Numbered from the stretch's first letter, positions 5,281 through 61,345 are shown. The stretch: DNA of 64,000 bases from a virus (IMGVR_UViG_3300031867_000033:344-64343); one strand, 5' to 3'. The notes: generated by a model not told the origin, from the letters alone. Program-made: numbers and translations.

Positions 5281-6520
5281 AATATGTGTTATTAACTAAT
5301 TAACATTACTTAATTAGCAATTAACCATGTTATGGTTTTTAAAGAGTGCCACAAACACTCTTTGCAGCTATATTTATAGCTGCATTTATATCTCTATCTA
5401 TTTCAAATCCACAAGAACATTTAAATATTCTATCTTTAAGAGTTAATTCAATTCTGTTTCCACAACAACTACAAGTCTAAGAAGTATAAGCAGGATTTAC
5501 TTCATACAAGTCTGTTCCAAACTTTTTACACTTCCATTTTAAAGTGTCAGTAAATCTACTTAATGGACTTATTTGAATTAATCTTCGTCTGTTTTTATTA
5601 GACATTTTAATTTTAGCATTAGTCAAATTTTCTATTGCAACATTATTATATCTACACAACTTTGTAGTTGTTTGTTTAATAAAATCTTTCTTTAAATTCT
5701 TAAATCTTTCATAAGCTAATTTTACTTTTTCATTTAGTTTATTATAGTTATTTGAGTTTTTAATCTTTTTATCTCTTAAAGATTTCAATTTATTTATTCT
5801 ATAAAATTCTCTTATAATACTTTTAGGATAGTTAATAAACTTTCCTTCAGAGCTTGTCATAAAATTCTTTATACCCCAATCAAGACCTATAGTAGTTGAA
5901 CTATTCTACTTAATAGGTTCAGGAGCATCATAGCTACCCGTAATATACCATTTTCCCAATTCATATTTGAATCTTGGCTTTTTAATTTCTGATATATTAA
6001 ACTTAGTTATATATTTCCTATCAACTACTATTTGCGATTTACCTTTAACACTAAAACTCTAAGCAGCGGGTAATTTTACTTTAAAATTATTAAATTTTAA
6101 CGTTTGTGAAGGTAAATAGAATGATTGTTTATTTGGATTATATTTATGAAATTTAGGCTTTCTTCCAATCTTTTTATAAACTCTTTGAACAGTATTAGCA
6201 TAATTCAAAAGAACTCCTTTAACAATTCTATTATGTAATGGAATTTCTGTTTCTCCGAAATCATTAAGTAAGTCTTTTTCTTTATAACCAATAATTCCAA
6301 AAGAACTAACCTTTGGTAATTTTTCCTAAAATTTTTCAACAAGAAAATTTCGCATTATATGAGAGTACTTACAATAAATAAATAAAATTTCTTCTTGTTC
6401 TTTAGTTGGATAAATTCTAAATTTACAGCCTTTAGTTAACATGATTTCACCTCCTATAAATATAAATAGTAAATTTGTTTTTATATTTATATAATATCAT
6501 AAGTTTGATTTAAAATCAAA
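5281..6520 (-). mobile_element. IS200/IS605-family TnpB-only element, copy 1 (no TnpA seen)
   Basis: Conserved left end ...TATAAATATAARTAGTAAATTT...ATATCATAA and right end AACCATGYTATGGT...TGTTATTAA shared with copies at 56170-57460 and 60121-61345. Confidence 0.65.
5339..6442 (-). CDS. tnpB: TnpB (OrfB, RuvC-like + Zn-finger) ~367 aa, continuous only if 4 in-frame TAG are read as Gln
   Basis: Translation matches copy 2 along full length (MLTKGCKFRIYPTKEQE...CSCCGN...DRDINAAINIAAKSVCGTL); three of the four TAGs are aligned to Q in copy 2 or 3 (below), and a fourth such pair is a TAG in copy 3 opposite Q in copy 1. Confidence 0.8.
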
Positions 6521-6573
6521 TCTTTGATATTGAAGGCTAAAATCTATAATGCGCCGGCGCATCATAAGTTTTT

Positions 6574-6750
6574 AATTAATTCCTTCTTCACCATCTTCTA
6601 CATCAATTATATCAATCTCACAGTCTCCATCGTTTTCATTGTAAAATTTTTCTGCCGCATTTATAGCTTCTTTATAAGTTTTCACTTCTGCAATTAAATA
6701 AGAACCTCTAGAATAATCAACAACTCTATACATCGAAACCTCCAAAAATC
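6574..6750 (-). CDS. small acidic protein (58 aa), paralog of 45761..45913
   Basis: RBS GGAGGTTTCG-ATG; MYRVVDY...DGDCEIDIIDVEDG resembles MYKVYDYYEDEF...DGECDVRIFNCEEVEG. Confidence 0.4.
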
Positions 6751-6851
6751 AATTGATTTAATTTCCTCTGTATTAGTGCACTAAAGGTTAATAAAATTAA
6801 CGCCGCAGTATTACTACCACGGCGCATTATTTTATTCGCCGCTATTCAAGT

Positions 6852-7256
6852 TTAGTTAACTCGTCTATACTCCTTAGCAGCATTCTTCTTAGTCTCTACC
6901 TCCTCAATTCTCTCATCTGCAACCATCAGTCTCAGCATTGCGGATGCCTTCTGAGTGCTGATGTCAAAGGTCTCAGCTATTACCTTAGCAGTATAAATAG
7001 TTCCGACCTCCATTCCATCAAATATCGTATTCTTCAGAGCCTCATTCTCAGGATTGGTCTTAGCGGACTTTCTCTCTCTGCCCTTAGCAGCCTCATTCTT
7101 CTTGTTAATCTTCTCAATAGAAGTCTTAGCGAACTCTACCAGCTCATCAATCAGAACGCCATCAGCATAAGCAGGATAAGAAGTCTCAGTTTCCTTACCA
7201 GCATTCAGAACTACAGTACCAGTTACGATTGCATTAAAGAACTCACGGTTAGTCAT
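6852..7256 (-). CDS. hypothetical protein (locally higher GC)
   Basis: ORF track. Confidence 0.55.
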   Translation of the reverse strand: MTNREFFNAIVTGTVVLNAGKETETSYPAYADGVLIDELVEFAKTSIEKINKKNEAAKGRERKSAKTNPENEALKNTIFDGMEVGTIYTAKVIAETFDISTQKASAMLRLMVADERIEEVETKKNAAKEYRRVN

Positions 7257-7404
7257 AAATCATTTCTCCTTTTTATTTGACTTAAAAATTTATTGATAAC
7301 TAATTTCTTAGGTCTGATTTAAGGTTCAGACCTTTAGAAAAGAAACCTCTCTTTTTTTTTATTACTTTTTTAAGTAATTTTTTAAATTATGCTTTATTCA
7401 GTTT

Positions 7405-17517: not shown

Positions 17518-18414
17518 TTATGGAAGAATTTTTATTTTATAAGCATTACTCTCTAAATCTGCGATTTGTATTAATCCCTTGTCTTGTAACCTTTTTATTC
17601 TTTCTCGAATTTTTGCAATTGTTGTTCCAGAATGATAACAACCTGCTGAATTTACTTTATACATCCAAATAAAATCAATTCCAAAAAAATATATTTGAGA
17701 AAATTCTGCCATATGTTTTTTAATATACCAAAGCATCATGCAATCTTCTTTAGCAATTAATATTTCTTCGTTGGATAGATATTTAAAAATATCTGGAATA
17801 TAATTAAATTCTAGATATGGAGCAGCCTTATCATTAATATCTACCGGCGCAAGAAAATGCTTCTCCTTTAATATTGACTAATATTTTGTTATTGTATTAT
17901 ATTTTATATTATCAATATAATTATTTAAATGCTTAGCAGTAGCATTTTTCTTTAAAATTAAATACTTATTTTCCTATTTATTATAGGATGACATTAAATA
18001 ATTGAGACAATAAATGTAAAATAATTTATCATTAAATAGATATAAAATATCATTGATGGTTATTTCTTTTTCTGCCTCTTCTTGTCTTAATGCCTTCGCT
18101 TTATCTGCTTCAACTTTGACTTTTATTGATGCTCGTATCGTTTCATCGTTATTCCATCTTCTATTATATCCACTTGGAAAATAGCAATCGTAATATATGA
18201 TATAATAATCTTCCCAATAATCTAATTCTTCTTTTGCAACTTCTTTAAGTAATTCAAAGGTAAAATTTTCTTCTCCTTCTATCTAAATAGTCATATCAAT
18301 AAATTGGTTTGAATGACCATCGTAATGCTAATCTAATCGACCTCCACATTTTTTTGATTGACCTACATAAATTTTACCATTAAGCTTGTTTGTAATTTTA
18401 TATATACCTACCAT
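17518..18414 (-). CDS. GIY-YIG homing endonuclease (298 aa, 5 in-frame TAG)
   Basis: RBS GGAGGTGTCAAT-ATG; N-terminus MVGIYKITNKLNGKIYVGQS; continuous to TAA at 17518 only with TAG as sense; track shows only the C-terminal 73 aa. Confidence 0.7.
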
Positions 18415-19830: not shown

Positions 19831-21584
19831 TATATTCCCTCCATCTCCAAATTTTTATCAATTCTTGTTCTTATATCGTTAAATCTTGTGCGATAAAGAT
19901 TACCATTTTTAAAATAAGGATAAAAAGCACTAATTTTTTCAAAGTTCTTAAATTCTTCTTCATTTAGCTCGCTCTTAACTTTAAGTTCTCCATTTTCCCA
20001 ATAAGGAACACAAAGTCCTTTAAGCGATTTCTTACTACTAAAATTCTTAGGGTCTTTAAAAATTTGAAGTTCTTTTCCGTCAGAAGTCTTTCCATATGTT
20101 GCTTTAATTGCAATTGAAAAAGTATCACGAGTAAAAGGCTTAAGTTCCTTTTTTTCCTCTATTGCTTCCATAGAAAATGAACCAACGCCAAGACTTACAC
20201 AATTTGCTGCGAATCCTTTAAGAGCAAGATTTTCATAAATTTTCTTTGCTCTCTGAATTGTTATAGAGTCTCCATAAACAGCTTTAACTTTGGGATTTAA
20301 TTCTATATAGCCTTTAGAATTTTTATTTCCTCCAAAAAATTCATAAAGGGTTTCAACCATTCCTTTATCCTCATAAGTTGTGTCTCTAAGAAATTTAACT
20401 TCCCATTCCCAAGCAGTTTCATTTCTTCCATCTATATATGCCCTTTGATATATCTTATAAATACCATCAAAGTGCATATATTTAACTCTTATTTCAAAAT
20501 CATGCCCATAGGTATCAAGAATATATTTTACATGACTATCTGCCCAATCTAAAAGTTTTTCCTCAATTTCATTCATTGCGTGATCGTGATATATTTTAAT
20601 TATATCATTCATATCTATTACAGGAATTCCACAAAGTGCAGCAACTGGCTCTGCACTATCATGCCTTAGCCCAATAAAACCTTCATGCTCTTCAATTTCT
20701 TTCTTTAAACTAGGTAATACTTCCGTAGCGATACGCCAAAAATTATAGCTATCTGCAACAGCTGCAAAACTAGTCTTAGGATAAATTTCAGTTAAAAGTC
20801 TACGATAAGTTTCTCTTTCATCACCGCAGATTGCAAAATCAGAAGTCATAACAGAATGTTCAGTAGAAGTCAAACCTCCAATTATAACAGGTTCAACATC
20901 TTTATAAATTTCCTTAATTTCAAATCTTGCTCCAACAGTAGAAGAATTATAAAAAGTAGTAAGCCAACCAAGTGAAGAATTAACTGCGCTTTCATAACTC
21001 TCTTGACCACGCATTGAAAAATCACAGCATCCTCTCTTCCAAGTGTCTACATTATCAACTGTCATATTATAGTAATATTTAACAATCTTTCCATATTCAT
21101 ATCCAACAGTTGCACTTATAGAGGGATGCCATATCAGACATGAAAGCAAACTTTCAATGCTTTGTGCTACAAAACAAAAATCTTTATGTGTAGAGCGAAT
21201 TTCAATTGCAGGAACTTGCATAGGAACGAGAGTTCCCTCAGGGAGTGCATTAACTTCAATAGGAAGATAGCCAAGATCATGAAGTGCTAAAACTTTTTCT
21301 AAAGTTTTGTCTACTACTTCTTTAGTATATCCAAGGCCATTCATTAAAACATCATAATATTCTTGTTTAATTTGTTCCTTTGAAACATCAAAAAACGTTT
21401 CATTAAAATCTTTATATAAATATTTGTAACAAAAACTACTAAGTCCAAAAAACACCATTTTATCTATTTTTTTCAATCTAGATGAACGTGGAGTTAAATA
21501 AGAAGTAAAATGAACTAATTCTGGTCTATATTGATTTAGATGAGTAAGCTTATAAAAATCTGTCTTTAACATTGAATTATACAT
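19830..21584 (-). CDS. nadV: nicotinamide phosphoribosyltransferase (Nampt/NadV-like)
   Basis: 584-aa protein of the Nampt/NAPRTase family by overall sequence; RBS AAGGAG; start overlaps stop of upstream endonuclease gene. Confidence 0.65.
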   Translation of the reverse strand: MYNSMLKTDFYKLTHLNQYRPELVHFTSYLTPRSSRLKKIDKMVFFGLSSFCYKYLYKDFNETFFDVSKEQIKQEYYDVLMNGLGYTKEVVDKTLEKVLALHDLGYLPIEVNALPEGTLVPMQVPAIEIRSTHKDFCFVAQSIESLLSCLIWHPSISATVGYEYGKIVKYYYNMTVDNVDTWKRGCCDFSMRGQESYESAVNSSLGWLTTFYNSSTVGARFEIKEIYKDVEPVIIGGLTSTEHSVMTSDFAICGDERETYRRLLTEIYPKTSFAAVADSYNFWRIATEVLPSLKKEIEEHEGFIGLRHDSAEPVAALCGIPVIDMNDIIKIYHDHAMNEIEEKLLDWADSHVKYILDTYGHDFEIRVKYMHFDGIYKIYQRAYIDGRNETAWEWEVKFLRDTTYEDKGMVETLYEFFGGNKNSKGYIELNPKVKAVYGDSITIQRAKKIYENLALKGFAANCVSLGVGSFSMEAIEEKKELKPFTRDTFSIAIKATYGKTSDGKELQIFKDPKNFSSKKSLKGLCVPYWENGELKVKSELNEEEFKNFEKISAFYPYFKNGNLYRTRFNDIRTRIDKNLEMEGI

Positions 21585-22470
21585 ACATTCCTCGCTCCTT
21601 TAAATAATCTAAACTTATATTTTTTATATCATAATAAGGTATTGTAATTAATTTTATACCATTTATACTACAATAATCTTCTTTTTTTAAATCATAACGC
21701 TGCTATCTTTTTAAATAGTTTTCTCCTCCAAAGTATTCAATTGCCTAATAATGTTGAATACCATTAAATTCAATTAAATTAACAAGCTATCCCTATGAAT
21801 TATATATTCCAAAATCAAAACGTAAAGAGATTTTATCACCTTTTAAATCTGGAAAGGTTATTTGTGTCTTATAACTAATATTATTATTTTCAAAAATTTC
21901 TTTCAATTTTAATTCTCCCGCAGATGAAGAGCCACACCATTGACATCCATTGAAGTCTTGATTGATAATATGATCTCGTCTAACTGAATATAGGGTAGGA
22001 TTTCCACAGTTACACTAAATCCAATAATAAATTGAACTGCTTTTATTGAACTATGGATTTTCATTTCTTTTTATAACTTTATATCTTCCAATTTGCTATC
22101 CTGATAAATCCATAAATTTTCCACCTAAACAGCCACAACTTTTTACTTCTCCAGAAGTTAAATTACTTCCTTTAACAATTACAGGTTCAGGATTACCACA
22201 GTCACATAAACATTTCCAATAAATACAGCCATTCCTTCTTTCTTTTATCTCTTCTATAACTTTTAATTTATTGAATTTCTTTCCTGTAAGATCTATTTTT
22301 CTTCCTAAATGAGAATATTTTAAGTCTGGATATTTTTCAATAATTTTATTCCATATTTTATAGCTATATCTTTGGTATCCCATTTTAAGGAAAAAATCTT
22401 TTTTTGTCTAACTTTCATTTATTAGTTTTTGTAACTATTCTTTACTATAATTCTACCATTTGCTAGGCAT
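21578..22470 (-). CDS. HTH + Zn-ribbon-repeat + DUF559 (PD-(D/E)xK) endonuclease-like protein, family copy D (~297 aa, 14 in-frame TAG)
   Basis: RBS TTAGGAGGGG; repeats YWKCLCDCGNP...KSCGCL; C-terminal RFDFGIYNSQGQLVNLIEFNGIQHY; track has only fragment 22096..22383. Confidence 0.6.
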
Positions 22471-22650: not shown

Positions 22651-23130
22651 TTATAAAAAATCAAAATAATCTTTTTTGACCCTTCTTTTATTATATTCTT
22701 GTTTTAAATCTTTTACTAAACTTTTAGTTCTTTGTATCTTATCTTGTTTATCTTTTGAAACTTGTTTAATAAACTTTGCTTTATCTCTAAAAATAGCTTC
22801 TTCCTCTGGGGTTAATCCTAATTCTATCAATTTACTCATTAATTCATTTAATTGTACTTTTAATTCATCTAAGGTTAATGATCCATCTTTACAATTGGTA
22901 TAAAAATAAAAATGATTATCTGAATCATAAACAATATAACCTTTATCTATCAATTCAGTTTTCGCTCTCTTTGCAGTACTTTCACTTACGTCATAACTTT
23001 TCTAAAAGTCTTTTGGTGAATAAGCAAAGTCATAATTATCCTAATTTTGAGCAAAATATAAATATAATTTTAATGCACTTGGAGTTAAATTCTTTGCTGC
23101 TTCTTGAAGTTCTTCAATAGAAATCTGCAT
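22651..23130 (-). CDS. winged-helix DNA-binding protein (replisome-organizer / Rep-N-like), 2 in-frame TAG
   Basis: RBS CAGGAGGG-ATG at 23128-23130; ALKLYLYFAQNQDNYDFAYSPKDFQKSYDVSESTAKRAKTELIDKGYI. Confidence 0.55.
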
Positions 23131-23369
23131 AAATGGCTTCCCTCCTGTTTTATCAATACGTTTTTTAATCGTACCATTATGCTAATTTGCATACGTCATA
23201 TTAACAACTCCCATTTTTTATTTTATTTACTCCTCTTCAATAATGAATAATAATAAAGATAGGAGGAGGTGGGAGTAAACCTCCTTTTAAATAGAGTAGC
23301 TAATTCTATTTCCTATCATATATTATGTAATAATTATATCATAAGAATCTAAAAAAATCAATCATTTTT

Positions 23370-40725: not shown

Positions 40726-40837
40726 CCTTTCGCTTAAAATTGTTGCGCCGCGATACCATAATTTCTTAATGCCGCGGCGCGTTGTAAGAAAGAGGTGTAA
40801 AGTTAAATTTGGCGGAATAAATTCTGATTATATATCT

Positions 40838-43416: not shown

Positions 43417-44287
43417 TTAAAATTTACTTAATAAATAATCTTTATCTAACTTATCAAAATCCCAATAAGGAATTTCAATTAATTTAATATTATTTTTATT
43501 ACAATATTTTCTTTTTTTATCATCATATATTTGCCTTTCTTTAAATTTTTCTTCGCCATTGGAAAAACGCATTGGAGTATAATGCTGTTCACCCTAATAT
43601 TCAATACAAGTATTGTAATCAGGCAAATAAAAATCAAAGGGTAAAGGCTTTGACTTTCCTATTAAATCTTCAAATTTTTTCTACTTATCATATTTTATAT
43701 TTAAATTTTGTAATATTTCTTCTATTTTATTTTCTCCTTTAGAAACTAAACAGCCGCAAGAAGAAGTATGCCCATTACAAACACTTATTTTAGATTTTAT
43801 ACATTTTTTCCCACAATCGCATTGGCATTCAAGGAGAGTTTTATTGTTTTCGTCTTTAAAAATTCTTAATATGGTCAACTATCCAAACTTTTTGCCCACT
43901 ATATTTTTATTAAGAGACTTACCACTAATTAAACAACCACAAGATTTTGTTTTTCCCGCCGTTAAATCTGTTCCTCTAATTGATTTTACTCCTCCACATT
44001 CACATTGGCATATCCAATATGTCTGCCCTGAACTTCCTATCCTAGTTTTATCCATCTCTATTACTTCTAATTTTCCATAGTGATTACCTCTTAAATCTTT
44101 AACCCTACCTCGTAAATGTTTAATTGATATATTATATTTTTCTGAAATTTCTTCAACTATTGATTTCGATGCTCCTTCTTTATATCCTATTTTTCTTAAT
44201 ACTTCTGTATAGGTTAAAGAATTATTAATAATTATTTCAAGGGATTCTTTAGACAAAGATTCATATAATTTCATTTTTATTCCTCCT
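43417..44287 (-). CDS. HTH + Zn-ribbon-repeat + DUF559 endonuclease-like protein, family copy A (~290 aa, >=3 TAG)
   Basis: RBS AACAGGAGGAATAAAA-ATG; WICQCECGG...KSCGCL; C-terminus PFDFYLPDYNTCIEYQGEQHY...IKLIEIPYWDF; track ORFs 43879..44466 + 43681..43878 are same frame joined by TAG. Confidence 0.65.
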
Positions 44288-46383: not shown

Positions 46384-47448
46384 TTAAGAGTTTATTAAAC
46401 TAAGTAAATAGTCTTCATTAAGTTTATTATAATCCCAATAAGGAATTTCTATTAATTTTATGTTATGGGACTCACAATAGTCTCGTTTTAAAGAATCATA
46501 TTCTTGCTAAGTCTTTAATCTTTCTTCTCCACCAAAATGGTCAAAACTTTCATAATGCTATGAACCCTAATATTCAATTAATATATTCTAATCTGGTAGA
46601 TAAAAATCAAACTTAAGCTATTTACCTTTTCCAGTTAAATCTTCAAATGAATACTAATCTAAAAACTCTATCTAAAGAGAATTTAAAATATTTCTAACTT
46701 TTAATTCTCCTCTTGATTTAAGACATCCACAACTCTATACTGTGCCAGCTCTAAGATCAGGACCCGAAACTGATTTTAATTTAGGATTTCCACAATCACA
46801 TTTGCATAACCAATACGCTTTTGGACCTCTTGTATAGTCCCTATCTACTACTGTAAGCATACCAAAACGCTAATTATATAAATCTCCTACTATTGAACAT
46901 CCACAACTCTTTGTATGTCCATTTTTTAATGCATTTCCATCTACTTTTAAAATGGTCTACTAACTACAGTCACACTAACACTTCCAATATACTCTCGATA
47001 AATCACTCTTATCTCTTCCTAAAACTGTTAAATGTCCAAATTTCTATCCCGTTAAATCATTATAATGCTACTCATGTATTAAACAGCCACAACTCTTTGT
47101 ATTTCCTTGCGTTAAATGATGACTGCTACATATCTTTATATTATGTTCTGGACATGAACAAATACATTTCCAATATGTATAAGTAGATTTTTTAAGATTA
47201 CTATTTTGAATTTCTTCAGGTGTAGCTTTAGCAATAACTGTTAATCTTCCAAAAGTCTATCCTATTAGATTATGTTCCTTACTTAAATGAGAAATATCAA
47301 TATTATACTTTTCTGCTATTTTTTTAATAACTCGAGTATACGTCTATGAATATCCCAATCTTTTTAAACACTCTGGTATAGTTTTACTTGTTGTTAAAAT
47401 TTCTTCCAATTCATCCTTAGAAAAATTTTCATATATAGGTTTTTTCAT
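46384..47448 (-). CDS. HTH + Zn-ribbon-repeat + DUF559 endonuclease-like protein, family copy B (~354 aa, ~16 in-frame TAG)
   Basis: RBS AGGAGGACTAAT-ATG; three YWKCxCxCP...KSCGCL repeats; C-terminus LKFDFYLPD(Q)NILIEY(Q)GS(Q)HYE; entirely absent from track. Confidence 0.6.
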
Positions 47449-50287: not shown

Positions 50288-50829
50288 TTTATCATTCCTC
50301 CATTTAAAAATTAAAAGGTCTAAAATCTAAGCACCATGTCGGTTACGCTCCGACGTCTGCTGGGTGGAAGCCAACAGTTCTACTATTAAACTAATGGTGC
50401 AAACGATACTTCTTTTAATAGATTAAGACGTTTGGGAAAAGTATCAAGCCCTAATTGTCGCTCTGATTATACTCAAGAGTCAAGAGTTGGAGTCCATTTT
50501 GGTACAAAGACCCCTGCATGATTCGCACATGCGGTCCGGAGGTTGCAGCTCCGAGTCTTAACTACTTGACTAAGGGGTCAAAACAAGACACACTTATAAA
50601 CGGCGTGCTAGCGATTACACCATCTCCCCATAATATGGCGGAGAGAATAGGACTCCAACCTATACTACCGGCTCCAAACGCAAAAGAAAATAGTTGCTGA
50701 TGTGTCTTAAGGGAATTTGTGGTTACGCTCCACAGTCTTGAGTGCCACAAACTCACGAACTAACTATTGTTCTAAATTCCCAAATGGCATTGTTTATACT
50801 CAAATGCCAAGAGTTAAGGTAGATGCAAA

Positions 50830-50904
50830 TGACGCATGAAGAACTCGAATCTTCAACATCTACGTTCTAAGCGTAGCCTCTCTTGCCAGTTGGAGTAATG
50901 CGCC
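50830..50904 (-). tRNA. tRNA with anticodon UAG (Leu by anticodon) but short class-I variable arm
   Basis: Manual fold: acceptor GGCGCAT/ATGCGTC (one G.U), U8A9, anticodon stem CTACG/CGTAG with loop CUUAGAA, 5-nt variable region, T-arm GAAGA-UUCGAGU-UCUUC. Confidence 0.5.
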
Positions 50905-51579
50905 ATAACTAGATCGAAAACGTCAGAATCGGACTGCCCCTCCGCATCCCTGGTGCTAGCTAGTGGAATTGCACCACTTAATACTTTTAGCTAACAAATG
51001 CGGCGTGCTACCACTACACCACGTTCTCGTTAATTTTAGTCGGCGATACCAGACTTGAACTGGTACGAGTTTTACCTCGAGGGATTTTGGTCTTGATGGT
51101 TGGTGCTGCCCCAACAATTAACTCGACACTGTTCGACACCAAGTAAGTCCCTTGTGTCTGCCTATTCCACCAATCGCCGAAGTTACTAGACAGTTAAATT
51201 TAAAGGACTTGAACCTTCTCTAAAAATTATACGAAAAATTTTTATTTATCCAATTAAATTTTGCTGTAACTGTCTAAATGGTTTTACATTAAGCCGCGGC
51301 TATATGGGAACCGCTAAACCATATATCTTAATGTAAAGTCACCTATATCCGTAATGCTCGGATTTCTCCGCCTTGAGAGAGCGGTGTTCTACTTTTAAAC
51401 TAATAGGCGAAAGACTAGGCAGTTAACTTTGAAGGGCTTGAACCTTCTATAAAAATTATACAAAAATTTTTAATTAACCATTTTAAATTTGCTGTAACTG
51501 TCTAAATCACCCCAACCGGTTATGCTCCGATGTCTTGAGGTTGAAATCCTCATATTCTACTATTAAACTATGGGGCGAA

Positions 51580-51656
51580 TGGCTGGGTAGGTGGGACTTA
51601 AACCCACGACCTGCTGGTTAACAGCCAGCTGCTACTATCGACTGAGCTACTACCCA
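51580..51656 (-). tRNA. tRNA-Asn (anticodon GUU) with encoded CCA
   Basis: Manual fold: acceptor TGGGTAG/CTACCCA, anticodon arm GCTGG-CUGUUAA-CCAGC, T-arm GTGGG-UUUAAGU-CCCAC, 3' GCCA. Confidence 0.65.
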
Positions 51657-52102
51657 TCAAATCGGTACCAACCAAGTACTTTATGCTATAGCCGCTGTGA
51701 ATGGAGTTTAAAACCACCTTCGTAGAGGTTGATGGTTCCCATTACTGGTTCTCGCAAAAGATTGCTTTAGAACTAAAGCCGTCTCCTATAGCTTCCCAAT
51801 GGACCGTCAGGGCTTTGCTCCCTGCACCTCCAGCTTGCAAAGCTAGCGTTCTACTAAATGAACTAACAGCCCAAATCAAGACAGCTTTAATCAATCAGTT
51901 CCAAAAATAACAGATTCTTTAAAATTGCTGTCGCCGTCTTTAATCGCGGATACGAGATGTGCGCTCGTGTCTGAGGAGCATGAATCCCCTATGCTAACTT
52001 CTACACCAATCCGCAAAATTAGTCAAGACACTTTTAAAAAATTTTAATAGCCAAAAATTTTCAAATTAAATATTGCTGTATGTGTCTTTTAATTATTTAA
52101 AT

Positions 52103-53034
52103 CTATTCCCATTCTTCATCTGAATAAGAATTTATATCTTTCTTTTTTCTAGGTAATTTTTCAAAATCACACCATTTACGTATAGAATTATCTGAAACTC
52201 CATACATTTTACCTATTTCAGTAAAAGGTTTAGTCCGAATTAGCTGTTTTAATTCTTTGCGAGAAGGTCTAGTAACGGTTCTCTTTGTTAAAGACATTTC
52301 TAATTTTTCTCTATCTGTATAAACTTTAGTCTATATCATTCGATAAGATAAAAATTCTTCATCAGTTAATTCTTTTATTGGGATATTATTCTCATTTAAA
52401 ATTTCCCAATAATATCCTAAAAACCTATATCCTGCATAAAGTGAACTATAAAAACTATCTATCTATGATTTATTTAACTAAAAGAAACTCATTATTTCTC
52501 TTATATTAAACACTCTTAATGATATTTTATCTTCTGATAAGGCAACATACTTATTCTTCTAAGTTACACGAGAACGTGTCTAATCTTCATCTATTCCATA
52601 ATATCGTAGAGCATTGGTTATTACAGAATCAGCACATTTATATAAATCCTACAATTCTTTACAAGATTTTCCTTCCACCCATTTTTCATAGATTTCTTTA
52701 TAATTGTAAAGATTTCCACCTGATTTTCCACCAAGAAGAATATTATATCCTTTATTTCTATTTGTGGAATCATAATATGAAATCCAATAAATTTCTCTAT
52801 CATTTAATTCTTCAACCGAACAATATTCAATAACATCATATTTAAAATTTTCAATTCCATATTTCTTCATGGCTGAATACAAATGATTATCATCATGTCT
52901 CTTATTTTCTTTTGCTTTTGCCTTATGTACGCCCCATCTTTTCTTTAGTTGGACGCTCTATCCAATATAAACTTTTCCATTTATAAGATTCTCAATCTTA
53001 TAAATGCCACAATTCTACTATTCTACTCTTGTCT
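52103..53034 (-). CDS. GIY-YIG homing endonuclease #3 (~310 aa, ~8 in-frame TAG) with C-terminal HTH
   Basis: CGIYKIENLINGKVYIGQS; C-terminus KMYGVSDNSIRKWC; track shows fragments 52649..52882 and 52103..52297. Confidence 0.6.
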
Positions 53035-53226
53035 CCATTTTACATAACCTCACTTGATTATTTTATTTACGCTTTAAGCCGCGCATGAGCTAATTTAATG
53101 GTTTCAGGGGCCCAGTTCGGACGGGGCTTCGAGAGTTTTAGAGACTCACAGACTACCTTCATATCTTACCCTGAATAGCAAACGTCTGGTATCGAACCAA
53201 ACACTTCATATTTCTATGCGTGCCCA

Positions 53227-53496
53227 TTACACCACTTCACTAATAATTTCTTCAATATTCAACTTTTTAAAAACCCAGTTTCCCTTTTCATTTAAGTAAA
53301 TCCAACCATATTTTTTAAATTCTTCAAACAATTCCTCAATTTCATCTGCCCAATTTTTTGCTATATCTAAACTTTTTGGTTTATACCCATCTGGATAATA
53401 TCTTGGATAAGATAAAACAAAAATTATATGTGACCAAGCATCAGCTGTAGTTTTAAAATTATCTTTTGAATAAAGCAAACAATCTTTAGCTTTCAT
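53227..53496 (-). CDS. hypothetical protein
   Basis: ORF track. Confidence 0.45.
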   Translation of the reverse strand: MKAKDCLLYSKDNFKTTADAWSHIIFVLSYPRYYPDGYKPKSLDIAKNWADEIEELFEEFKKYGWIYLNEKGNWVFKKLNIEEIISEVV

Positions 53497-53955
53497 TTTA
53501 ATCTCCTTTTTAATTTTCTATAAATATTATATCAGAATTTTAAGAATTTTTCAAATATTTAAATCCAATTTTAAGTAGTAAGTAGTTTCAACCTTACGCA
53601 TCCTCTATGGATTTCACAAACTTGATAATGGAGTTGGACCTCCAAGTGTTCCATGAACGAGGCTCCTATTGTCTTAGTGCCTTTTAATTCTTGGCTATAC
53701 TTAAATTAGATTTAAAGTCCGCCTTCCGGGCGACGATCCCGGCACCCCCAGATTAATGGTGTTGAGTAGTGGAATCGAACCACTTATTATCCTTTACCCA
53801 ACAAGTCTGGTGCTCTAGCCAATCATGAGCTAAAGGCGGAAAATTACAAGACAGCTTTTAAAATTTTAATGCCAAAAATTTTAAATAAATTGCTGAACTG
53901 TCTTTAAGTTTCTATAAATATTATAACAAAATTTTATAGAATTTTCAAATATTTA

Positions 53956-54027
53956 TACGCTGTGAAAGAATCGAACTTTCATCAGATGCTTATCAGACAT
54001 CTATTCTAACCATTGAAATAACAGCGT
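53956..54027 (-). tRNA. tRNA-Ile (anticodon GAU)
   Basis: Manual fold: acceptor ACGCTGT/ACAGCGT, anticodon arm GATGT-CUGAUAA-GCATC, T-arm GAAAG-UUCGAUU-CUUUC. Confidence 0.55.
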
Positions 54028-54323
54028 ATTGGGTATAGCTTCGAGGCTATACCATTGTACAATTGTATGACCTCTATATTTATAGTCCAGTTGCCATACG
54101 GTGGACTGGAGCTTCCACATTTGGGCTTGAACCAAAACTGGCAGAGTCTGGTAGCTGATATTGGATTTGCACCAATCAAAGTTCGTATATTATCAACTAA
54201 AGTCTGCTGTGCTAACCTTATTACACCATGTGGAAATATAATAGAGAATCTAATTAAAATGTATTTATTTCTCTCAAACTCTCTATAAATATTATAGCAA
54301 AAATTTTTAAAAATTTCAAATAT

Positions 54324-54656: not shown

Positions 54657-55448
54657 TCAGTCTAAATTCATCTCTGCTAAATCCAGAAGATAAATTAAAC
54701 CCTTGTCTAAATAACTTCTTGCTTTCTTTTTCAAATCTTCGTCTACACCATAATAAGCCTCAGCAATACTTCCAGCTATCGCAGCAATAGTATCACTGTC
54801 TCCACCTATTGAAATTGCATTTCTTATACAATCCTCAAAGTTTTTTGATTCAAGAAAACATTCAATTGCTTGTGGCACTGAACCTTGACAGCTTTCCTTA
54901 AAAGTATAACTTGGACGTATATCATCTAAAGTAAAATTTATAATATAATAAGTATTTGCGTAATATCTTAAATACTCTTTGTCTTTACCTTCTTTAGCAA
55001 GAAAAATTAAAGAGCTAATTGCTTCTGCTCCCTTTATTCCTTCTGGATGGTTATGAGTAACTTTTGCAGTTAATCTTGCATTTTCTACCGCTTCTGCTAT
55101 AGTTCTTGCATATAAGCCACATGGACTTACTCTCATAGCAGACCCGTTACCCCAAGAATTATATGGTTGAGGATTGTCGGATTTAATCCACTGATAAAAT
55201 CTCTAACCATATCCTGCTCCATTATACTGTCTGCCTAATCTTTGCATCCAATACTGCGCCGCGGTATTAAGTCTAGTTCCACTCATTTTATTTTGAACCA
55301 TTGCCGCAGCTATAGCTATAGTCATAACAGTATCATCTGTATAACTACATCCACTATCAAATAAATCAAAATCTTTTGATTTGATATTATTAAATTCAAA
55401 ACGAGAACCAACTATGTCTCCAATTATTGCACCGTAAATTGTTTTCAC
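54657..55448 (-). CDS. ADP-ribosylglycohydrolase (DraG/ARH-like), 263 aa, one in-frame TAG joins two track ORFs
   Basis: IYGAIIGDIVGSRFEF...DDTVMTIA at N-terminus, GNGSAMRVSPCG in joined region, GGDSDTIAAIAGSIAEAYYG near C-terminus; ORFs 55203..55448 and 54657..55136 same frame, separated by TAG at 55203-55205. Confidence 0.7.
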
Positions 55449-56169: not shown

Positions 56170-57460
56170 TAAGTAAAATCAAATAGTTCAAACTCTACTG
56201 TGTTATTAATCTATTAATATTATTCAATAGACAAACTAACCATGTTATGGTCTTAAAGAGTACCACAAACACTCTTTGCAGCAATGTTTATTGCTGCATT
56301 TATGTCTCTATCCATTATGTTTCCACAAGAACATTTAAACACTCTATCTTTAAGAGTTAATTTAATTTTATTTCCACAACAGCTACAGGTTTGACTAGTA
56401 TAAGCAGGATTTACTTCAAATAGGTCTGTACCAAACTTTTTGCATTTCCATTTTAAAGTTTCAGTAAATCTGCTTAATGGATTTATTTGAATTAGCCTTC
56501 GTCTATTCTTATTAGACATTCTAATCTTAGCATTAGTTAAATCTTCTATCGCAACATTATTATTTCTACACAATCTTGTAGTAGTTTGTTCAATAAAATC
56601 TTTCTTTAAATTTTCAAATCTTTCATAAGCTATTTTTACTTTATTATTTAGTTTATTCCAATTATTTGAATTTTTAACTTTCTTATCTCTTAAAGACTTT
56701 AATTTATTTATTCTGTAAAATTCTCTTAATACTGTTTTAGGATAGTTTATAAATTCACCTTTAGAATTTGTCATAAAATTCTTTATTCCCCAATCAAGCC
56801 CTATAGTAGTTGTTTCTTGTCTTTCTGGCTCTTCAATTTCATAAGAACCAGTTATGAACCATTTACCATTAATATAATGATATCTTGGCTCTTTAATTTC
56901 TTTAATATTGAATTTCTCAATATACTCATTATCTACTACTATTTTTGACATCCCCTTAACACTTAGCTCTCTTGAATGAGGTAAATTAATACCTTTTTTA
57001 TCAATTTTATAAGTTTTAGAGGTAATGTAGAATGATTGTCTATTTGGATTATATTTGTGAAATTTTGGTTTTCTTCCTAATTTCTTATAGCATCTATCAA
57101 CTGAATATTTATAATTCATAATAATACCTTTAACTAAATAAATTGGTAAAGATATCTCCTAAACTTCATAGTCAGTTAATAGATTTTTTTCATTATAACC
57201 TACTAAACCGAATATGTTAGTTTTAGGTAAATTATCTTGATATTTTGCTACTAAAAAATTTCTCATAATATGAGAATATTTACAGTAAATCAATAATATT
57301 TTCTCTTGTTCCTTTGTTGGATAAATTCTAAATTTACAGCCTTTTAACATGATTTCACCTCCTATAAATATAAGTAGTAAATTTATTTTATATTTATATA
57401 ATATCATAAATCTGATTTGAAAACAAATATTTCATTATACATTATAATATTAACCTGCGC
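56170..57460 (-). mobile_element. IS200/IS605-family TnpB-only element, copy 2
   Basis: Shared end sequences with copies 1 and 3. Confidence 0.65.
56253..57407 (-). CDS. tnpB: TnpB, 384 aa, two track ORFs in the same frame joined by one TAG (57159-57161)
   Basis: 57159..57407 (N-terminal HTH-like part) and 56253..57119 are in frame; the 13 intervening codons are open; C-terminal Zn-finger CSCCGN...CSCG and RuvC-like DRDINAAINIA. Confidence 0.8.
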
Positions 57461-57567
57461 CGCGCTACCAATTTTTGATAAAATTGGTAAACTTTAGAAG
57501 CGGTAAAAATCTAACATAAAAGTACTGTGAATAACATCGCAACGCTTTGTAGGTATCATTTCAATTA

Positions 57568-58413
57568 TAACTCATCGTCTTTAATCTAAGAAATTCTTTC
57601 TTCAATCTCTTGTCTTATACTCTAATCTATATATTCTTTTTCATCCTCTTCACAATCTATGTATTTACTATCAATATAAAAATTTACATTAGTTAAAATA
57701 TAATGTTTAATTTTCTTATGTTTACTATTTAATTCAATTTTTTCATAAAAATCAATTAATTTATATTTCTATAAAAGTAAAAGAGATTTATAAATTGAAA
57801 TATGATTTTTCTATTCTTTCTTCTTTCCTAAAAACGTTCTTAAATCCATCATTGAGAAATCAAAAGATTTATACATTCTTTCTATTCCAACTTCTCTATA
57901 GGTTAATAAAAACTGATAAAGCCTAAAATCCTATTCTGAGAATTTTAATTTTTCATTCATAATTTTTAAAGTTTCTTTTGGGATATTTCTGGACTTGTGC
58001 CCAGGTCTAGTTTCATAGTATTCGCAAGGTCGTTTTTTTCTAATCGTCCAAAGCTTTAACCAAATTTTATAATCTTCTTCTTTTGTTAATTCCCAAGAAG
58101 ATTTTTCTGGATAATCTTTTTTCATTATCTCTTTTCTTAACTTTTTTGCTTCTTCTGGTTCCTCTCCATTGTTTCCATAAATTATTTTTCCATTTCTTTC
58201 GAGTTCCCACCAGTATTTTTTAATTGAATTAACACTTAAATCAATGGTTCTTGATATTTCAGAAAGATTAATATTTTTATGCTGAAAAACTCTTTGCTAC
58301 ATATTAGGAGGATTGCCACCTAGACATACTAAATAATTAAATAATTTTTGAGAATTATGGCTTATATCATGCTAGTCTCCCATAGTCTTTAAGCCTTTTT
58401 CATAAATACTCAT
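57568..58413 (-). CDS. iteron-adjacent winged-helix (Rep-like) protein #2, 281 aa, 7 in-frame TAG
   Basis: RBS GAGGTGATAAA-ATG; KLFNYLVCLGGNPPNM(Q)(Q)RVFQHKNINLSEISRTIDLSVNSIKKYWWELERNGKI; stop TAA 57568-57570; track has only a 64-aa piece. Confidence 0.55.
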
Positions 58414-58469: not shown

Positions 58470-58680
58470 TAAAATTTTGATAATTTCTATAATCATTAAA
58501 AATATCAAAAATTTCTTTATCATAAAAATTTTATCAAAAAGTATCACCAATTTATCAAAAAGTAATACCGAATTTATCAAAAAGTAATATCAAATTTATC
58601 AAAAAGTATCACCAATTTTATCAAAAAGTATCACTATATGTAGATTACTTTTTCCTAGTCGGCAAAAAGTAATCAAAAAG
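58470..58680. repeat. iteron-like direct repeats, ~6 x TTATCAAAAAGTA(A/T)YACC at 21-22 bp period
   Basis: Units at ~58530, 58551, 58573, 58594, 58617 plus degenerate flanking copies; immediately upstream of Rep-like gene #2. Confidence 0.6.
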
Positions 58681-58689
58681 CGACGCGAC

Positions 58690-58950
58690 CGTTGGTCGCA
58701 CAAAAGATTTCTAAAACTAATTAATTTAATCTTAAGCCTATATTTACGACCGCCGGCGCTACGCGCCTCTGGTCTATTTTCAAAAGCTCTCAACTAAGGA
58801 AACTCTTCCATTTAATCCTCTGCCGCCCTTCCTTCAAAATCGATTGCACGCGCAACGCGCGGGCAAGGCTTTCGTTTTGCGCGAGGCCGCAGGCCGAGTA
58901 GCAAAACAAAGCCCAAGAAGCATCAAGGCTTTAATTTCTATTTTAAAACA
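58690..58950. repeat. GC-rich hairpin cluster sharing GGCGCTACGCGCC and GCGAGGCCGNAGGCCGAG motifs with 2130-2260
   Basis: Direct comparison of the two segments; 13-mer GGCGCTACGCGCC identical. Confidence 0.5.
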
Positions 58951-58982
58951 AAAGCACCGTGGATAATACCGCGGCGCAAAAT

Positions 58983-60120
58983 TTATTTTTTAATCCATTT
59001 AGTAAAATGAATAGCTAAATAATATAAACAAAATATAACTGGAAAAATTACTAAATAACTTCCACTTAAACTATGAACTAATGTTGTAATTTGATTTCCA
59101 ACAAGTCCAGCTATTGCCCAAGCAGATAATGCTGTTCCATGAATTTTACTTATATGTTTCATTCCATATAAGTCTGAAAGTAAAGGAGCAATACAACTAA
59201 AACCTGCTCCATAACAGGCAGAAATTAAAATTAAAGCAATAACTGAAAATTTAGAAAAACAAAAAGCAAATATTGCACAAACCATAGAAATTAAAAAGAT
59301 TATATAATAAATTGTTTTTCTTTCTTTTAGCTTATCTGAAGCTGCAGAAAATACTAATCTTCCTGCTCCATTAAAAATCCCCATTATAGAAACGACTAAA
59401 GCAACTGCTCCAACACTAAAGCCAAGTTCTCCAAGAATTAAACTTGCAGTAGGAATTAAAGCAAGACCACAAGCAATATTTAAAAAGAATAACAGCCAAA
59501 TAAAAATAAAATTCTTATCTTTTAATAATTCTTTAATTTTAAAATCTGTTTTTGTTTGCGGCTCGTTCCAGCCCTCTGGTTTCTTCAAAAGAAAATGTCC
59601 TATTAGCATTGGAATAAAATATATTCCAGCAAGGATTAAAAATACAATTGGCAATGCAAAATGTGCCATTAAAAAAGTAATAATAGGACTTGCAAGAGTT
59701 GACGCGAATCCAAAAGCACAAACTGAAATTCCAGTTGCTAGTCCCTTATTGTCTTTAAACCATAACATTAAGGTTTTAACAGGAGTTAAATAGCCAATTC
59801 CTAGTCCAATTCCCATTAAACATCCATAGCCCAAATAAAGAAGAACTAAAGATTTTAAACCGACTGCTAAACCAGCAAGACAAAGTCCTCCACAAAAACA
59901 AAATATACTAATTAAAGAAGAGCGATGAATATTTTTTTCAACAATTGAACCACCGAAAGCAGCACTCATTCCCAGAAAGAAAATTGCTAAACTAAAAGCG
60001 AATTGAACTAAACCAACTGATACTCCTAAAGCTAAAGCGATAGGTTGGACAAATAAAGACCAGGCATAAACAGAACCTATACAAATATGAAGTAAAATTG
60101 CGGGAAGTGCCGCATTTACT
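58983..60120 (-). pseudogene. MFS transporter, oxalate/formate antiporter (OFA) family, 5'-truncated by TnpB element copy 3
   Basis: Track ORF 58983..59969 extends in frame upstream (…AALPAILLHICIGSVYAWSLFVQPIALALGVSVG…, OFA-type GSVYAWS motif) to the IS right end at ~60121 with no start codon. Confidence 0.55.
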
Positions 60121-61345
60121 GTGTTATTAACTTAGTTCGTTAAACTAAGCAACTAACCATGCTATGGTTTTTAAAGAGTGCCACAAACACTCTTCGCAGC
60201 TATATTTATAGCCGCATTTATATCTCTATCCATTTCAAAACCACAAGAGCATTTAAATACTCTATCTTTAAGAGTTAATTTGATTCTATTTCCACAGAAA
60301 CTACAGGTTTGACTAGTATAGACAGGATTTACTTCATATAAATCCGTTCCAAACTTTTTACATTTCCACTTTAAAGTATCAGTAAATCTACTTAAAGGAT
60401 TAATTTGAATTAGTCTTCTTCTATTTTTATTAGACATTTTAATTTTAGCATTAGTTAAATCTTCTATTGCTATATTATTATATCTACACAGTCTAGTAGT
60501 TGTTTGTTCTATGAAATCTTTCTTTAAATTTTCAAATCTTTCATAAGCTAATTTTACTTTATTGTTTAACTTATTCCAATTGTTTGAATTTTTATTTTTC
60601 TTATCTCTTAAAGATTTTAGCTTATTTATTCTATAAAATTCTCTTGTAACACTTTTCGGATAATTTATAAATTCACCACTAGAACTTGTCATAAAGTTCT
60701 TTATACCCCAATCAAGCCCTATAGTAGTTAAACTGTTCTGCTTAACAGGTTCAGAAATATTATAGCTGCCGGTAATATACCATTTACCAGATTCATATTT
60801 AAACCTTGGTTCTTTTATCTCTAATATATTAAACTTAGTTATATATTTCTTATCAACAACTATTTTTGATTTACCTTTTACCGAAAAATTTCTAGCAGAC
60901 GGTAATTGAATTTTAAAATTTTTAATATTAAGATTCTATGAAGGTAAATAGAATGATTGTTTATTCGGGTTATACTTGTGGAATTTTGGTCTCTACCCTA
61001 TCTTTTTATAAACTCTATTTACGGAATTGGCATAATTATAAAGAACGCCTCTATATAATCGCTTAGGAAGTGATATTTCTGTATTAAAATCTTTTATAAG
61101 ATTTTCTTCATTATACTTAATAATTCCAAAAGAGCTTACATTAGGTAAATTATCCTAAAATTTCTCTACGAGAAAATTTCTCATAATATGAGAGTATTTA
61201 CAATAAATAAACAAAATTTCTTCTTGTTCTTTAGTTGGATAGATTCTAAATTTACAACCTTTTAACATTTGATTTTCACCTCCTATTGTAATATATTAAG
61301 TCTCTCACTTTAAATATATTATAACTTAAAACAGAGATAAAATCA
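60121..61345 (-). mobile_element. IS200/IS605-family TnpB-only element, copy 3, inserted into 5' end of MFS gene
   Basis: Right-end motif TGTTATTAACT...AACCATGCTATGGT and left-end motif shared with copies 1 and 2. Confidence 0.65.
60171..61268 (-). CDS. tnpB: TnpB, ~366 aa, 3 in-frame TAG
   Basis: ATG at 61266-61268 after GGAGGTGAAAATCAA; MLKGCKFRIYPTKEQEE...; TAGs at F(Q)D, G(Q)R, S(Q)N. Confidence 0.75.

What the first reader, a model, noticed from the sequence alone, without database searches (positions are those of the whole stretch)
5339..61268. TAG reads as a sense codon (most likely Gln, table 15-like); TAA and TGA remain stops
Three lines of evidence.

(1) The three TnpB paralogs are full-length (366-384 aa) only if in-frame TAGs are read through. 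At five positions a TAG in one copy aligns to a CAA/CAG glutamine in another copy:
- copy 1 VEKF-TAG-EKLPK vs copy 2 VAKYQDNLPK
- copy 1 PEPIK-TAG-NSSTTIG vs copy 2 PERQETTTIG and copy 3 EPVKQNSLTTIG
- copy 1 AYTS-TAG-TCSCCG vs copies 2 and 3 AYTSQTCS
- copy 3 PS-TAG-NLNIK vs copy 1 LPSQTLKF
- copy 2 DYEV-TAG-EISLP

(2) Dozens of stretches of 250-360 codons contain 2-16 TAGs but no TAA or TGA in a ~70% AT genome. These are preceded by good RBS and encode recognisable domains (GIY-YIG, DUF559, nrdG, ADP-ribosylglycohydrolase, Rep-like wHTH).

(3) TAA and TGA are used as terminators (checked at 5011, 28483, 61796, 44453).

Consequence: the standard-code ORF track fragments or misses at least 20 genes here.
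Basis: seen in the sequence. Interest (0 to 1): 0.85.

Follow-up and report, generated by a model that had tools for sequence, protein, structure and literature searches.

The report
Phage genome reading TAG as glutamine
This stretch comes from a large uncultivated phage that reads the stop codon TAG as glutamine, a recoding already known in gut phages, and here the recoded codons sit mostly in selfish nuclease genes.

Summary
About 20 minus-strand genes are intact only if TAG is read through. TAA and TGA are the only terminators.

- **Residue:** homologues place Gln opposite TAG far more often than chance, 38% against a 4.4% background. Gln is the best fit at 17 of 30 sites. An almost invariant Gln is TAG in two paralogues.
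- **Not pseudogenes:** the three TnpB copies are under purifying selection (dN/dS 0.12-0.18).
- **Suppressor tRNA:** a tRNA with anticodon CUA lies in the window's tRNA array at 53099-53175(-). Four related contigs carry CUA tRNAs in the same array, three of them clearly tRNA-Gln-like.
- **Source:** the window is part of ENA contig ERZ27256863:k141_3536858 (98 kb). Its public gene calls already translate TAG as Q.

This is genetic code 15, well documented in gut phages, so it is a new member of a known kind.

The added point is the skew in TAG use. TAG supplies 52% of Gln codons in 10 homing-endonuclease and TnpB genes, but 4% in 57 other genes (p = 2e-25).

Weak points:
- The window's own CUA tRNA is atypical and gets no Rfam match.
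- No release-factor gene is in the window.
- No structural gene is in the window.
- There is no peptide evidence.

The parts
5339..6442 (-). TnpB copy 1 (367 aa), 4 in-frame TAG
   Evidence: Pfam OrfB_IS605, Cas12f1-like_TNB and HTH_OrfB_IS605 match across the TAGs. dN/dS against the other copies is 0.12-0.18.
17518..18414 (-). GIY-YIG homing endonuclease, 4 TAG
   Evidence: Pfam GIY-YIG. It carries CAA in the YVGQS motif where its paralogues carry TAG.
21577..22470 (-). Free-standing homing endonuclease of the E-x-Q-G-x-Q-H family, 10 TAG
   Evidence: Paralogue of 46384-47448.
22651..23214 (-). Small winged-HTH, replication-initiator-like protein, 3 TAG
   Evidence: PHROG 270/186.
25587..25979 (-). 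Hypothetical protein, 1 TAG
   Evidence: ORF table. No family match.
32716..33045 (-). Hypothetical protein, 2 TAG
   Evidence: ORF table. No family match.
40828..41724 (-). GIY-YIG homing endonuclease, 8 TAG, including one at the YVG-TAG-S motif
   Evidence: Pfam GIY-YIG. The public gene call is 298 aa.
43417..44274 (-). Homing endonuclease paralogue, 3 TAG, abutting the tmRNA gene
46384..47448 (-). Homing endonuclease (354 aa), 16 TAG against 3 CAA and 0 CAG
   Evidence: PHROG 374/559/9084. The public product P0001 has Q at all 16 TAG sites.
50330..54028 (-). tRNA array with at least 11 tRNAs, holding the CUA tRNA between Ile(GAU) and Ala(UGC)
   Evidence: ARAGORN and Rfam. The order Ile, CUA, Ala, Asn, Glu recurs in relative L003.
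52097..53038 (-). GIY-YIG homing endonuclease, 10 TAG, directly downstream of the CUA tRNA
   Evidence: Pfam GIY-YIG. The public gene call is 313 aa.
53099..53175 (-). Candidate amber-suppressor tRNA with anticodon CUA. It has a 7-bp acceptor stem, U33, A37 and an encoded CCA, but an atypical T arm.
   Evidence: ARAGORN calls it. ARAGORN made 0 calls in 9.6 Mb of composition-matched random sequence. A clade-derived covariance model scores it 32.2 bits, E 1.5e-7. The Rfam tRNA model does not match it.
54657..55325 (-). ADP-ribosylglycohydrolase, 1 TAG inside the domain, ends in TGA
   Evidence: Pfam 2.7e-38. The PDB alignment puts Q or T opposite the TAG, with catalytic motifs on both sides of it.
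56253..57350 (-). TnpB copy 2 (365 aa), 1 TAG
57565..58413 (-). Hypothetical protein, 7 TAG
   Evidence: No Pfam or PHROG match.
60171..61268 (-). TnpB copy 3 (365 aa), 3 TAG. It lies between nrdG and the MFS gene, which are adjacent in relative L003.
61796..62329 (-). NrdG-type radical-SAM activase, 2 TAG, ends in TGA
   Evidence: Pfam Fer4_12, 2e-35, spanning both TAGs.
62417..63307 (-). Homing endonuclease paralogue, 5 TAG, between nrdD and nrdG
802..1909 (-). Two small DNA-binding proteins, one wHTH-like and one ScpB-like (802-1158 and 1172-1909), with 5 and 4 TAG.
   Evidence: PHROG 270/186 and 3396.

Best explanation
The window is part of a large uncultivated phage genome that uses genetic code 15. 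TAG is a sense codon read as glutamine, and TAA and TGA are the only stops.

**How decoding works (inferred).** A phage-encoded tRNA with anticodon CUA sits in the tRNA array at 53099-53175(-). The host GlnRS presumably charges it, as happens with E. coli supE.

**How TAG is distributed (shown).** TAG provides about half of the Gln codons in free-standing homing endonucleases, TnpB and a few small DNA-binding genes. It is almost absent from the metabolic, RNA-repair and other accessory genes.

**What the skew means (inferred).** It implies that TAG decoding is costly or restricted in time. Genes that must work before or without efficient suppression avoid TAG. AT-rich selfish genes under weak codon selection let CAG drift to TAG, or are held back until suppression is established.
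For: **Shown: TAG is read through.**
- Long ORFs appear only with TAG as sense.
- Pfam domains span the TAGs.
- In the ADP-ribosylglycohydrolase, essential motifs lie on both sides of the TAG.
- The public product P0001 equals the window gene with Q at all 16 TAG sites, and the window is 100% identical to that ENA contig.

**Shown: the residue is Gln.**
- In 119 homologues of four paralogous endonucleases, Q lies opposite TAG in 38% of aligned cells against a 4.4% background.
- Q is the best BLOSUM62 fit overall (1.93, against 0.88 for E) and at 17 of 30 sites.
- The G-x-Q-H Gln, present in 108 of 111 homologues, is TAG in two paralogues.
- In relatives, window TAGs face TAG (35), CAA (34) or CAG (4). 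All 129 in-frame stops in their homologous genes are TAG. The MFS orthologue, 81% identical, has TAG where the window has Q.

**Shown: the genes are functional.** TnpB dN/dS is 0.12-0.18 at dS of about 1, and the TAG positions differ between copies.

**Shown: a suppressor tRNA is present.**
- ARAGORN calls the CUA tRNA, and makes 0 calls in 9.6 Mb of random sequence.
- A clade covariance model scores it 32.2 bits, E 1.5e-7.
- Relatives L003, L004, L007 and L008 all carry CUA tRNAs in the same array.
- L003's scores 60 bits in Rfam.
- The L003, L007a and L008 copies are closest to tRNA-Gln(UUG), at 71-77% identity.

**Shown: the skew.**
- TAG against CAA plus CAG is 64 to 58 in 10 mobile genes and 8 to 202 in 57 other genes (Fisher p = 2e-25).
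- Mobile genes have GC3 of 0.16 against 0.23, and CAG makes up 0.14 of CAR codons against 0.50.

**Precedent.** Code 15 and its late-gene model are described in bioRxiv 10.1101/2021.08.26.457843. Peptide proof of TAG as Q is in PMC9523058.
Against: - The Rfam tRNA model does not match the window's CUA tRNA even at E up to 10.
- That tRNA has an aberrant T arm (TCCGAAC loop, G53-U61) and A73. It is only about 62% identical to the relatives' CUA tRNAs, no closer than to unrelated tRNAs. Its Gln identity, and even its function, are therefore inferred from context.
- No tRNA-Gln(UUG), GlnRS or RF2 gene is in the window.
- 34 kb of the contig could not be read.
- No structural or lysis genes are in the window. 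Both the phage assignment and the early/late reading are therefore indirect.
- Some database homologues may themselves be code-15 translations, which would inflate the Q counts.
- At 13 of 30 sites another residue (K, N or E) fits better.
- There is no peptide evidence.
Confidence: 0.88

Rival explanations
1. TAG is fully and constitutively reassigned. The skew towards selfish genes has no regulatory meaning. It reflects only weak codon selection, AT-biased drift (CAG to TAG is one transition), or import of these elements from other code-15 phages.
For: - Mobile genes form a distinct compositional class, with GC 0.26 against 0.32, GC3 0.16 against 0.23, and all NNG codons depleted.
- TAG (64) and CAA (50) are about equal in mobile genes, as neutral drift would give.
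- The elements are insertion polymorphisms relative to L003.
Against: The near-total absence of TAG from 57 other genes holding 202 Gln codons still needs selection against TAG in them. That selection implies a cost or a timing constraint on decoding. In relatives, TAG does enter PhoH, the methyltransferase, NrdD and MFS, but not DUF2828, the ligases or Rnl1.
Confidence: 0.3
2. The TAG-containing genes are decaying pseudogenes of mobile elements, and TAG is an ordinary stop.
For: Most TAGs lie in homing-endonuclease and TnpB genes, which often decay.
Against: - The interruptions are TAG only, with no TAA, TGA or frameshift.
- TnpB dN/dS is 0.12-0.18.
- TAG sits at invariant Gln positions.
- TAG also occurs in NrdG, the ADP-ribosylglycohydrolase and, in relatives, NrdD, PhoH and MFS.
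- No gene ends in TAG.
Confidence: 0.02
3. TAG is a sense codon for another residue, such as Lys, Glu or pyrrolysine. ARAGORN labels the tRNA 'Pyl'.
For: - K is the second most common residue opposite TAG (12%) and the best fit at 5 of 30 sites.
- The identity of the window's own tRNA is not established by similarity.
Against: - Q fits best by a wide margin and occupies the invariant sites.
- The relatives' CUA tRNAs share the tRNA-Gln(UUG) D arm and acceptor end.
- ARAGORN's 'Pyl' label follows from the anticodon alone.
- The tRNA has a normal-sized D loop with GG and a 5-nt variable loop. From my own knowledge, this is unlike pylT.
- No Pyl-related Pfam match appeared among the proteins scanned.
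Confidence: 0.05

Closest known systems
Code-15 (TAG to Gln) gut phages: crAss-like, Lak, Agate and others (Borges et al., bioRxiv 10.1101/2021.08.26.457843; Peters et al., PMC9523058)
   Same: - In-frame TAG at Gln positions.
- TAA and TGA kept as stops.
- A phage-encoded CUA suppressor tRNA.
- A set of genes that stay compatible with the standard code beside a recoded set.
- One intron homing endonuclease was already noted there as preferentially recoded.
   Different: - No detectable nucleotide or close protein similarity to deposited phages.
- In this window the recoded set is dominated by free-standing homing endonucleases and TnpB, not structural or lysis genes, which are not in the window.
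- No RF2 is seen.
phAss-1 / proposed Phassvirus group (Babkin et al., PMC10607447)
   Same: A genome of about 100-136 kb from the human gut, with many tRNAs, CUA suppressor tRNAs and TAG read as Gln. In that paper, as here, recoding was inferred from broken conserved genes.
   Different: Not related at sequence level. Megablast found no match in the phage collection.
E. coli supE (glnV amber suppressor), a tRNA-Gln with anticodon CUA (own knowledge)
   Same: The proposed decoding step is the same: a tRNA-Gln-type molecule with a CUA anticodon charged by GlnRS. The relatives' CUA tRNAs share U1-A72 and the GCCAAGYGGNAAGGCA D arm with the clade's tRNA-Gln(UUG).
   Different: Here the tRNA is carried by the phage and supports dozens of essential in-frame TAGs, not leaky suppression. 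The window's own copy is divergent.
Phage genomes with blocks of different codes (Mgcod, bioRxiv 10.1101/2022.06.29.495998)
   Same: TAG-free and TAG-using genes coexist in one genome.
   Different: Here the two classes are interleaved gene by gene, because mobile elements are inserted among TAG-free genes. They are not arranged in large blocks.

Membership tests
Genetic code 15 phage (TAG to Gln) | In-frame TAG, and only TAG, inside intact conserved genes and domains | tested here: met
Genetic code 15 phage (TAG to Gln) | TAG aligns to Gln in homologues | tested here: met
   Q is 38% of aligned cells against a 4.4% background and is the best fit at 17 of 30 sites. TAG faces CAA or CAG in relatives.
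Genetic code 15 phage (TAG to Gln) | TAA and TGA remain stops, and TAG is never the terminator | tested here: met
   71 genes end in TAA (65) or TGA (6) and none in TAG. The TGA-terminated NT5C, ARH and NrdG proteins are domain-complete. Reading TGA as sense gives no new ORF of 300 aa or more.
Genetic code 15 phage (TAG to Gln) | Genome-encoded suppressor tRNA with anticodon CUA | tested here: met
   Window tRNA at 53099-53175, though Rfam does not match it. It is conserved in the arrays of four relatives.
Genetic code 15 phage (TAG to Gln) | The suppressor tRNA is of glutamine type and charged with Gln | tested here: inconclusive
   The L003, L007a and L008 CUA tRNAs are nearest to tRNA-Gln(UUG). 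The window copy is no closer to Gln than to other tRNAs. Charging cannot be tested with these tools.
Genetic code 15 phage (TAG to Gln) | The replicon is a phage | tested here: inconclusive
   There are PHROG matches, a tRNA array, homing endonucleases, T4-type Rnl1 and kinase genes, and best hits to 'Bacteriophage sp.' from faeces. No capsid, portal or terminase gene lies in the window.
Genetic code 15 phage (TAG to Gln) | Peptides with Gln at TAG positions | not testable with these tools
   This needs metaproteomics of the source sample.
Pyrrolysine decoding of TAG | pylT-type tRNA plus pylS/pylBCD genes, with TAG at a few specific sites | tested here: not met
   No such Pfam match appeared among the proteins scanned. 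There are 91 TAGs, mostly at Gln positions. The tRNA has an ordinary D loop and variable loop.
Pseudogenised mobile elements | Mixed stop codons, frameshifts and relaxed selection | tested here: not met
   Interruptions are TAG only, and dN/dS is 0.12-0.18.
TGA-recoded codes (4 or 25) | In-frame TGA in conserved genes | tested here: not met
   TGA ends domain-complete proteins. Long ORFs do not increase when TGA is read as sense.

The most novel reading that the evidence does not exclude
In this phage lineage the code switch may act mainly as a gate on selfish nucleases. Free-standing homing endonucleases and TnpB carry TAG as about half of their Gln codons, so they would be made only once the phage's suppressor tRNA is active. 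The converse is also possible: these elements could form a mobile gene pool confined to code-15 phages, because their genes are untranslatable elsewhere.
Probability: 0.2. Interest if true: 0.55.

Novelty: new member of a known kind. Interest (0 to 1): 0.3.

Why it matters
**For annotation.** A standard-code gene call breaks or loses about 20 genes in this window. Public calls for close relatives are inconsistent: one contig has nrdD split into four pieces, while a near-identical contig has it whole.

**For biology.**
- It adds a lineage with no close deposited relative to the code-15 phages.
- It gives a clean within-genome contrast. Selfish nuclease genes use TAG freely, while accessory metabolic genes avoid it.
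- That contrast could be used to test whether recoding times gene expression or merely drifts.

Tried and rejected
- **Phage collections:** Megablast of 22 kb against the phage collection found no match.
- **IMG/VR:** Scans with peptide patterns from the DUF2828 protein and with the tRNA anticodon-arm sequence found nothing.
- **Rfam:** The Rfam tRNA model did not match the window's CUA tRNA at any threshold. No HDV-like ribozyme match appeared around the array.
- **Extending the contig:**
  - I tried to read the contig beyond position 64000, to look for RF2, further suppressors and structural genes.
  - My guessed MFS start is not on record.
- **NrdG in the PDB:** The search gave no hit, so there is no residue evidence for its two TAGs.
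- **Candidate phage identities:**
  - Jug phages are reported to use no alternative code (PMC12880540).
  - The phAss-1 group shows no sequence similarity.
- **Summed ORF length of 100 aa or more:** I rejected it as a test. It rises almost as much for TGA (19,209 aa) as for TAG (20,049 aa), because spurious ORFs lengthen in AT-rich DNA. Only ORFs of 200 aa or more discriminate.

Full report
**What the window is**

The window has 30.6% GC, and nearly all genes lie on the minus strand. It is 100% identical to part of ENA metagenome contig ERZ27256863:k141_3536858, which is 98,360 bp long. The public product of gene 46384-47448 on that contig (P0001) equals the window's gene with Q at all 16 TAG positions. 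The database's gene caller therefore already applied code 15.

- **ORF lengths:**
  - With TAG as sense, ORFs of at least 300 aa rise from 9 to 17, and those of at least 200 aa from 17 to 29.
  - With TGA as sense the counts go 9 to 9 and 17 to 18.
- **Long ORFs:**
  - Twelve minus-strand ORFs of at least 250 codons carry 2-16 TAG and no TAA or TGA.
  - TAA plus TGA occupy about 5.7% of trinucleotide positions.
  - A 360-codon stretch free of both is therefore about a 6e-10 event by my arithmetic.
- **Domains:** Pfam domains run straight across the TAGs in these genes:
  - TnpB (OrfB_IS605 and the TNB domain);
  - three GIY-YIG genes;
  - the ADP-ribosylglycohydrolase (2.7e-38);
  - the NrdG-type activase (2e-35).
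- **Catalytic motifs:** In the glycohydrolase the TAG lies between the N-terminal YTDDT motif and the C-terminal GGDSDT motif. PDB homologues have Q or T at that position.

**Which amino acid**

- **External homologues:**
  - I aligned 119 database homologues to four paralogous endonucleases.
  - Gln lies opposite TAG in 38% of aligned cells, against a 4.4% background.
  - It is the majority residue at 17 of 34 sites.
  - The nearly invariant Gln of the G-x-Q-H motif (108 of 111 homologues) is TAG in two paralogues.
- **Best-fit residue:**
  - By mean BLOSUM62 fit, Q scores 1.93, E 0.88 and K 0.75.
  - Q is the best residue at 17 of 30 well-covered sites.
- **Source of the homologues:** Homologues held by NCBI or JGI carry Q at the motif.
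- **TnpB paralogues:** Among the three copies, TAG faces CAA or CAG most often, and otherwise AGA, ACA or AAA.
- **Related contigs:**
  - Window TAGs face TAG (35 times), CAA (34) or CAG (4).
  - All 129 in-frame stops in the relatives' homologous genes are TAG.
  - The MFS orthologue, 81% identical, has TAG where the window has Q.

**Pseudogenes are excluded**

The TnpB copies differ by a dS of about 1, yet dN/dS is 0.12-0.18. Their TAG positions also differ between copies. They have therefore evolved under selection with TAG as a sense codon.

**Stops**

None of 71 credible genes ends in TAG. Sixty-five end in TAA and six in TGA. The TGA-terminated NT5C, glycohydrolase and NrdG proteins are domain-complete.

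**The decoding machinery**

*The window's CUA tRNA*

- ARAGORN finds a 77-nt tRNA with anticodon CUA at 53099-53175(-).
- It has a perfect 7-bp acceptor stem, U8, A14, GG in the D loop, U33, A37 and an encoded CCA.
- Its T arm is abnormal, and the Rfam tRNA model does not match it at any threshold.
- ARAGORN made no calls at all in 9.6 Mb of random sequence of the same composition.
- A covariance model built from the clade's Gln and CUA tRNAs scores it 32.2 bits (E 1.5e-7) over its full length. That is within the range of the window's accepted tRNAs. The model finds no other hidden tRNA.

*Relatives*

- I found related contigs through the TAG-free DUF2828 protein, at 57-94% identity.
- L003, L004, L007 and L008 each carry CUA tRNAs in the same array.
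- L003's CUA tRNA scores 60 bits in Rfam.
- The L003, L007a and L008 copies are closest to the clade's tRNA-Gln(UUG), at 71-77% identity. They share its D arm and U1-A72.
- The window's tRNA occupies the same slot between Ile and Ala. It also follows the homologue of the same small ORF as in L004.
- It is nonetheless only about 62% identical to the relatives' CUA tRNAs.
- Its Gln identity is therefore an inference from context.

*Other factors*

No release factor or GlnRS is among the window's larger proteins.

**Distribution of TAG**

| Gene class | Genes | TAG | CAA + CAG |
|---|---|---|---|
| Mobile (3 TnpB, 3 GIY-YIG, 4 other homing endonucleases) | 10 | 64 | 58 |
| Small DNA-binding or unknown | 4 | 19 | 20 |
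| All other genes | 57 | 8 | 202 |

- The contrast between mobile and other genes gives Fisher p = 2e-25.
- The TAG-free genes, identified, fall into these groups:
  - an NAD salvage set;
  - Thg1-like, Rnl1-like and kinase genes;
  - macro, vWA-TerF, SPFH, DUF2828 and MFS genes.
- The mobile genes are compositionally distinct. Their GC3 is 0.16 against 0.23, and CAG makes up 0.14 of CAR codons against 0.50.
- They are also insertions relative to L003, where nrdD, nrdG and the MFS gene are adjacent.
- In relatives, TAG also occurs in PhoH, a methyltransferase, NrdD, NrdG and MFS. Endonuclease genes still carry the most.

**Interpretation**

- **Shown:**
  - TAG is translated as a sense codon.
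  - Gln is the best-supported residue.
  - TAA and TGA are the only stops.
  - CUA tRNAs are a feature of the whole clade.
- **Inferred:**
  - The window's own tRNA is the functional suppressor and is charged by host GlnRS.
  - The avoidance of TAG in most genes reflects a cost or a timing restriction on decoding.
- **Fit to the published model:**
  - In Borges et al. (bioRxiv 10.1101/2021.08.26.457843), early genes stay compatible with the standard code.
  - Recoded genes are translated once the suppressor acts.
  - That paper already notes one intron homing endonuclease as preferentially recoded.
- **Prior evidence for code 15:**
  - Peptide evidence for TAG as Q in other gut phages is in PMC9523058.
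  - Another unrelated code-15 phage group is described in PMC10607447.

**Comparison and novelty**

The window has no close relative in the deposited phage collection or in IMG/VR. Mechanism and signature match code-15 phages on every feature I could test. It is a new member of a known kind, and the public gene calls already reflect the recoding.

The strong concentration of TAG in selfish nuclease genes is the only part that goes beyond the textbook picture. Drift and gating both remain open as explanations for it.

Noticed in passing
window 43060-43416 (-): A phage-encoded tmRNA gene (Rfam RF00023, 52.4 bits, full-length match). A homing endonuclease gene ends at the base next to it. ARAGORN at default settings missed it.
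   Followed up: partly
window 19045-21584, 26392-26877, 29013-30350, 54657-55325 (-): An NAD+ and ADP-ribose gene set: NAMPT, NAD synthase, a phosphoribosyltransferase, an isochorismatase/nicotinamidase-like gene, a macro domain and an ADP-ribosylglycohydrolase. All are TAG-free except the last. The set may counter NAD-depleting host defence (my inference).
   Followed up: no
window 15617-16450, 33451-34530, 35042-35929 (-): An RNA repair-type set: a Thg1-like guanylyltransferase, a T4 Rnl1-like RNA ligase and an AAA_33+HD kinase/phosphatase. All are TAG-free.
   Followed up: no
window 50829-50905 (-); also L002-L008: The tRNA with anticodon UAG, labelled Leu, is only 75-77 nt and has no long variable arm. 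This is conserved across relatives. From my own knowledge, bacterial tRNA-Leu normally has a long variable arm, so its identity is uncertain.
   Followed up: no
window 51339-51409, 51507-51577, 51944-52015 (-): Three tRNAs, Glu(CUC), Glu(UUC) and a CAU-anticodon tRNA, have unusual T loops. ARAGORN at default settings missed them and Rfam found them. tRNA counts in this phage therefore depend on the tool used.
   Followed up: partly
window 58983-63307 (-) against L003 15777-19792: In relative L003, nrdD, nrdG and an MFS transporter gene are adjacent. The window has a homing endonuclease between nrdD and nrdG, and TnpB copy 3 between nrdG and MFS. The window's NrdG is only 32% identical to L003's, while MFS is 81% identical, which suggests module replacement. 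The MFS start codon is unclear.
   Followed up: partly
L004 16552-18798 against L005 12040-14286: Public gene calls split nrdD, which has 4 in-frame TAG, into four pieces on one contig. A near-identical contig has it as one 748-aa gene. Code assignment is inconsistent among relatives.
   Followed up: yes
window 5285-6525, 56200-57450, 60117-61286: The three TnpB loci share about 79-80% nucleotide identity over about 1.2 kb, extending slightly beyond the ORFs. I did not look for a TnpA gene or for the associated guide-RNA region and element ends.
   Followed up: no
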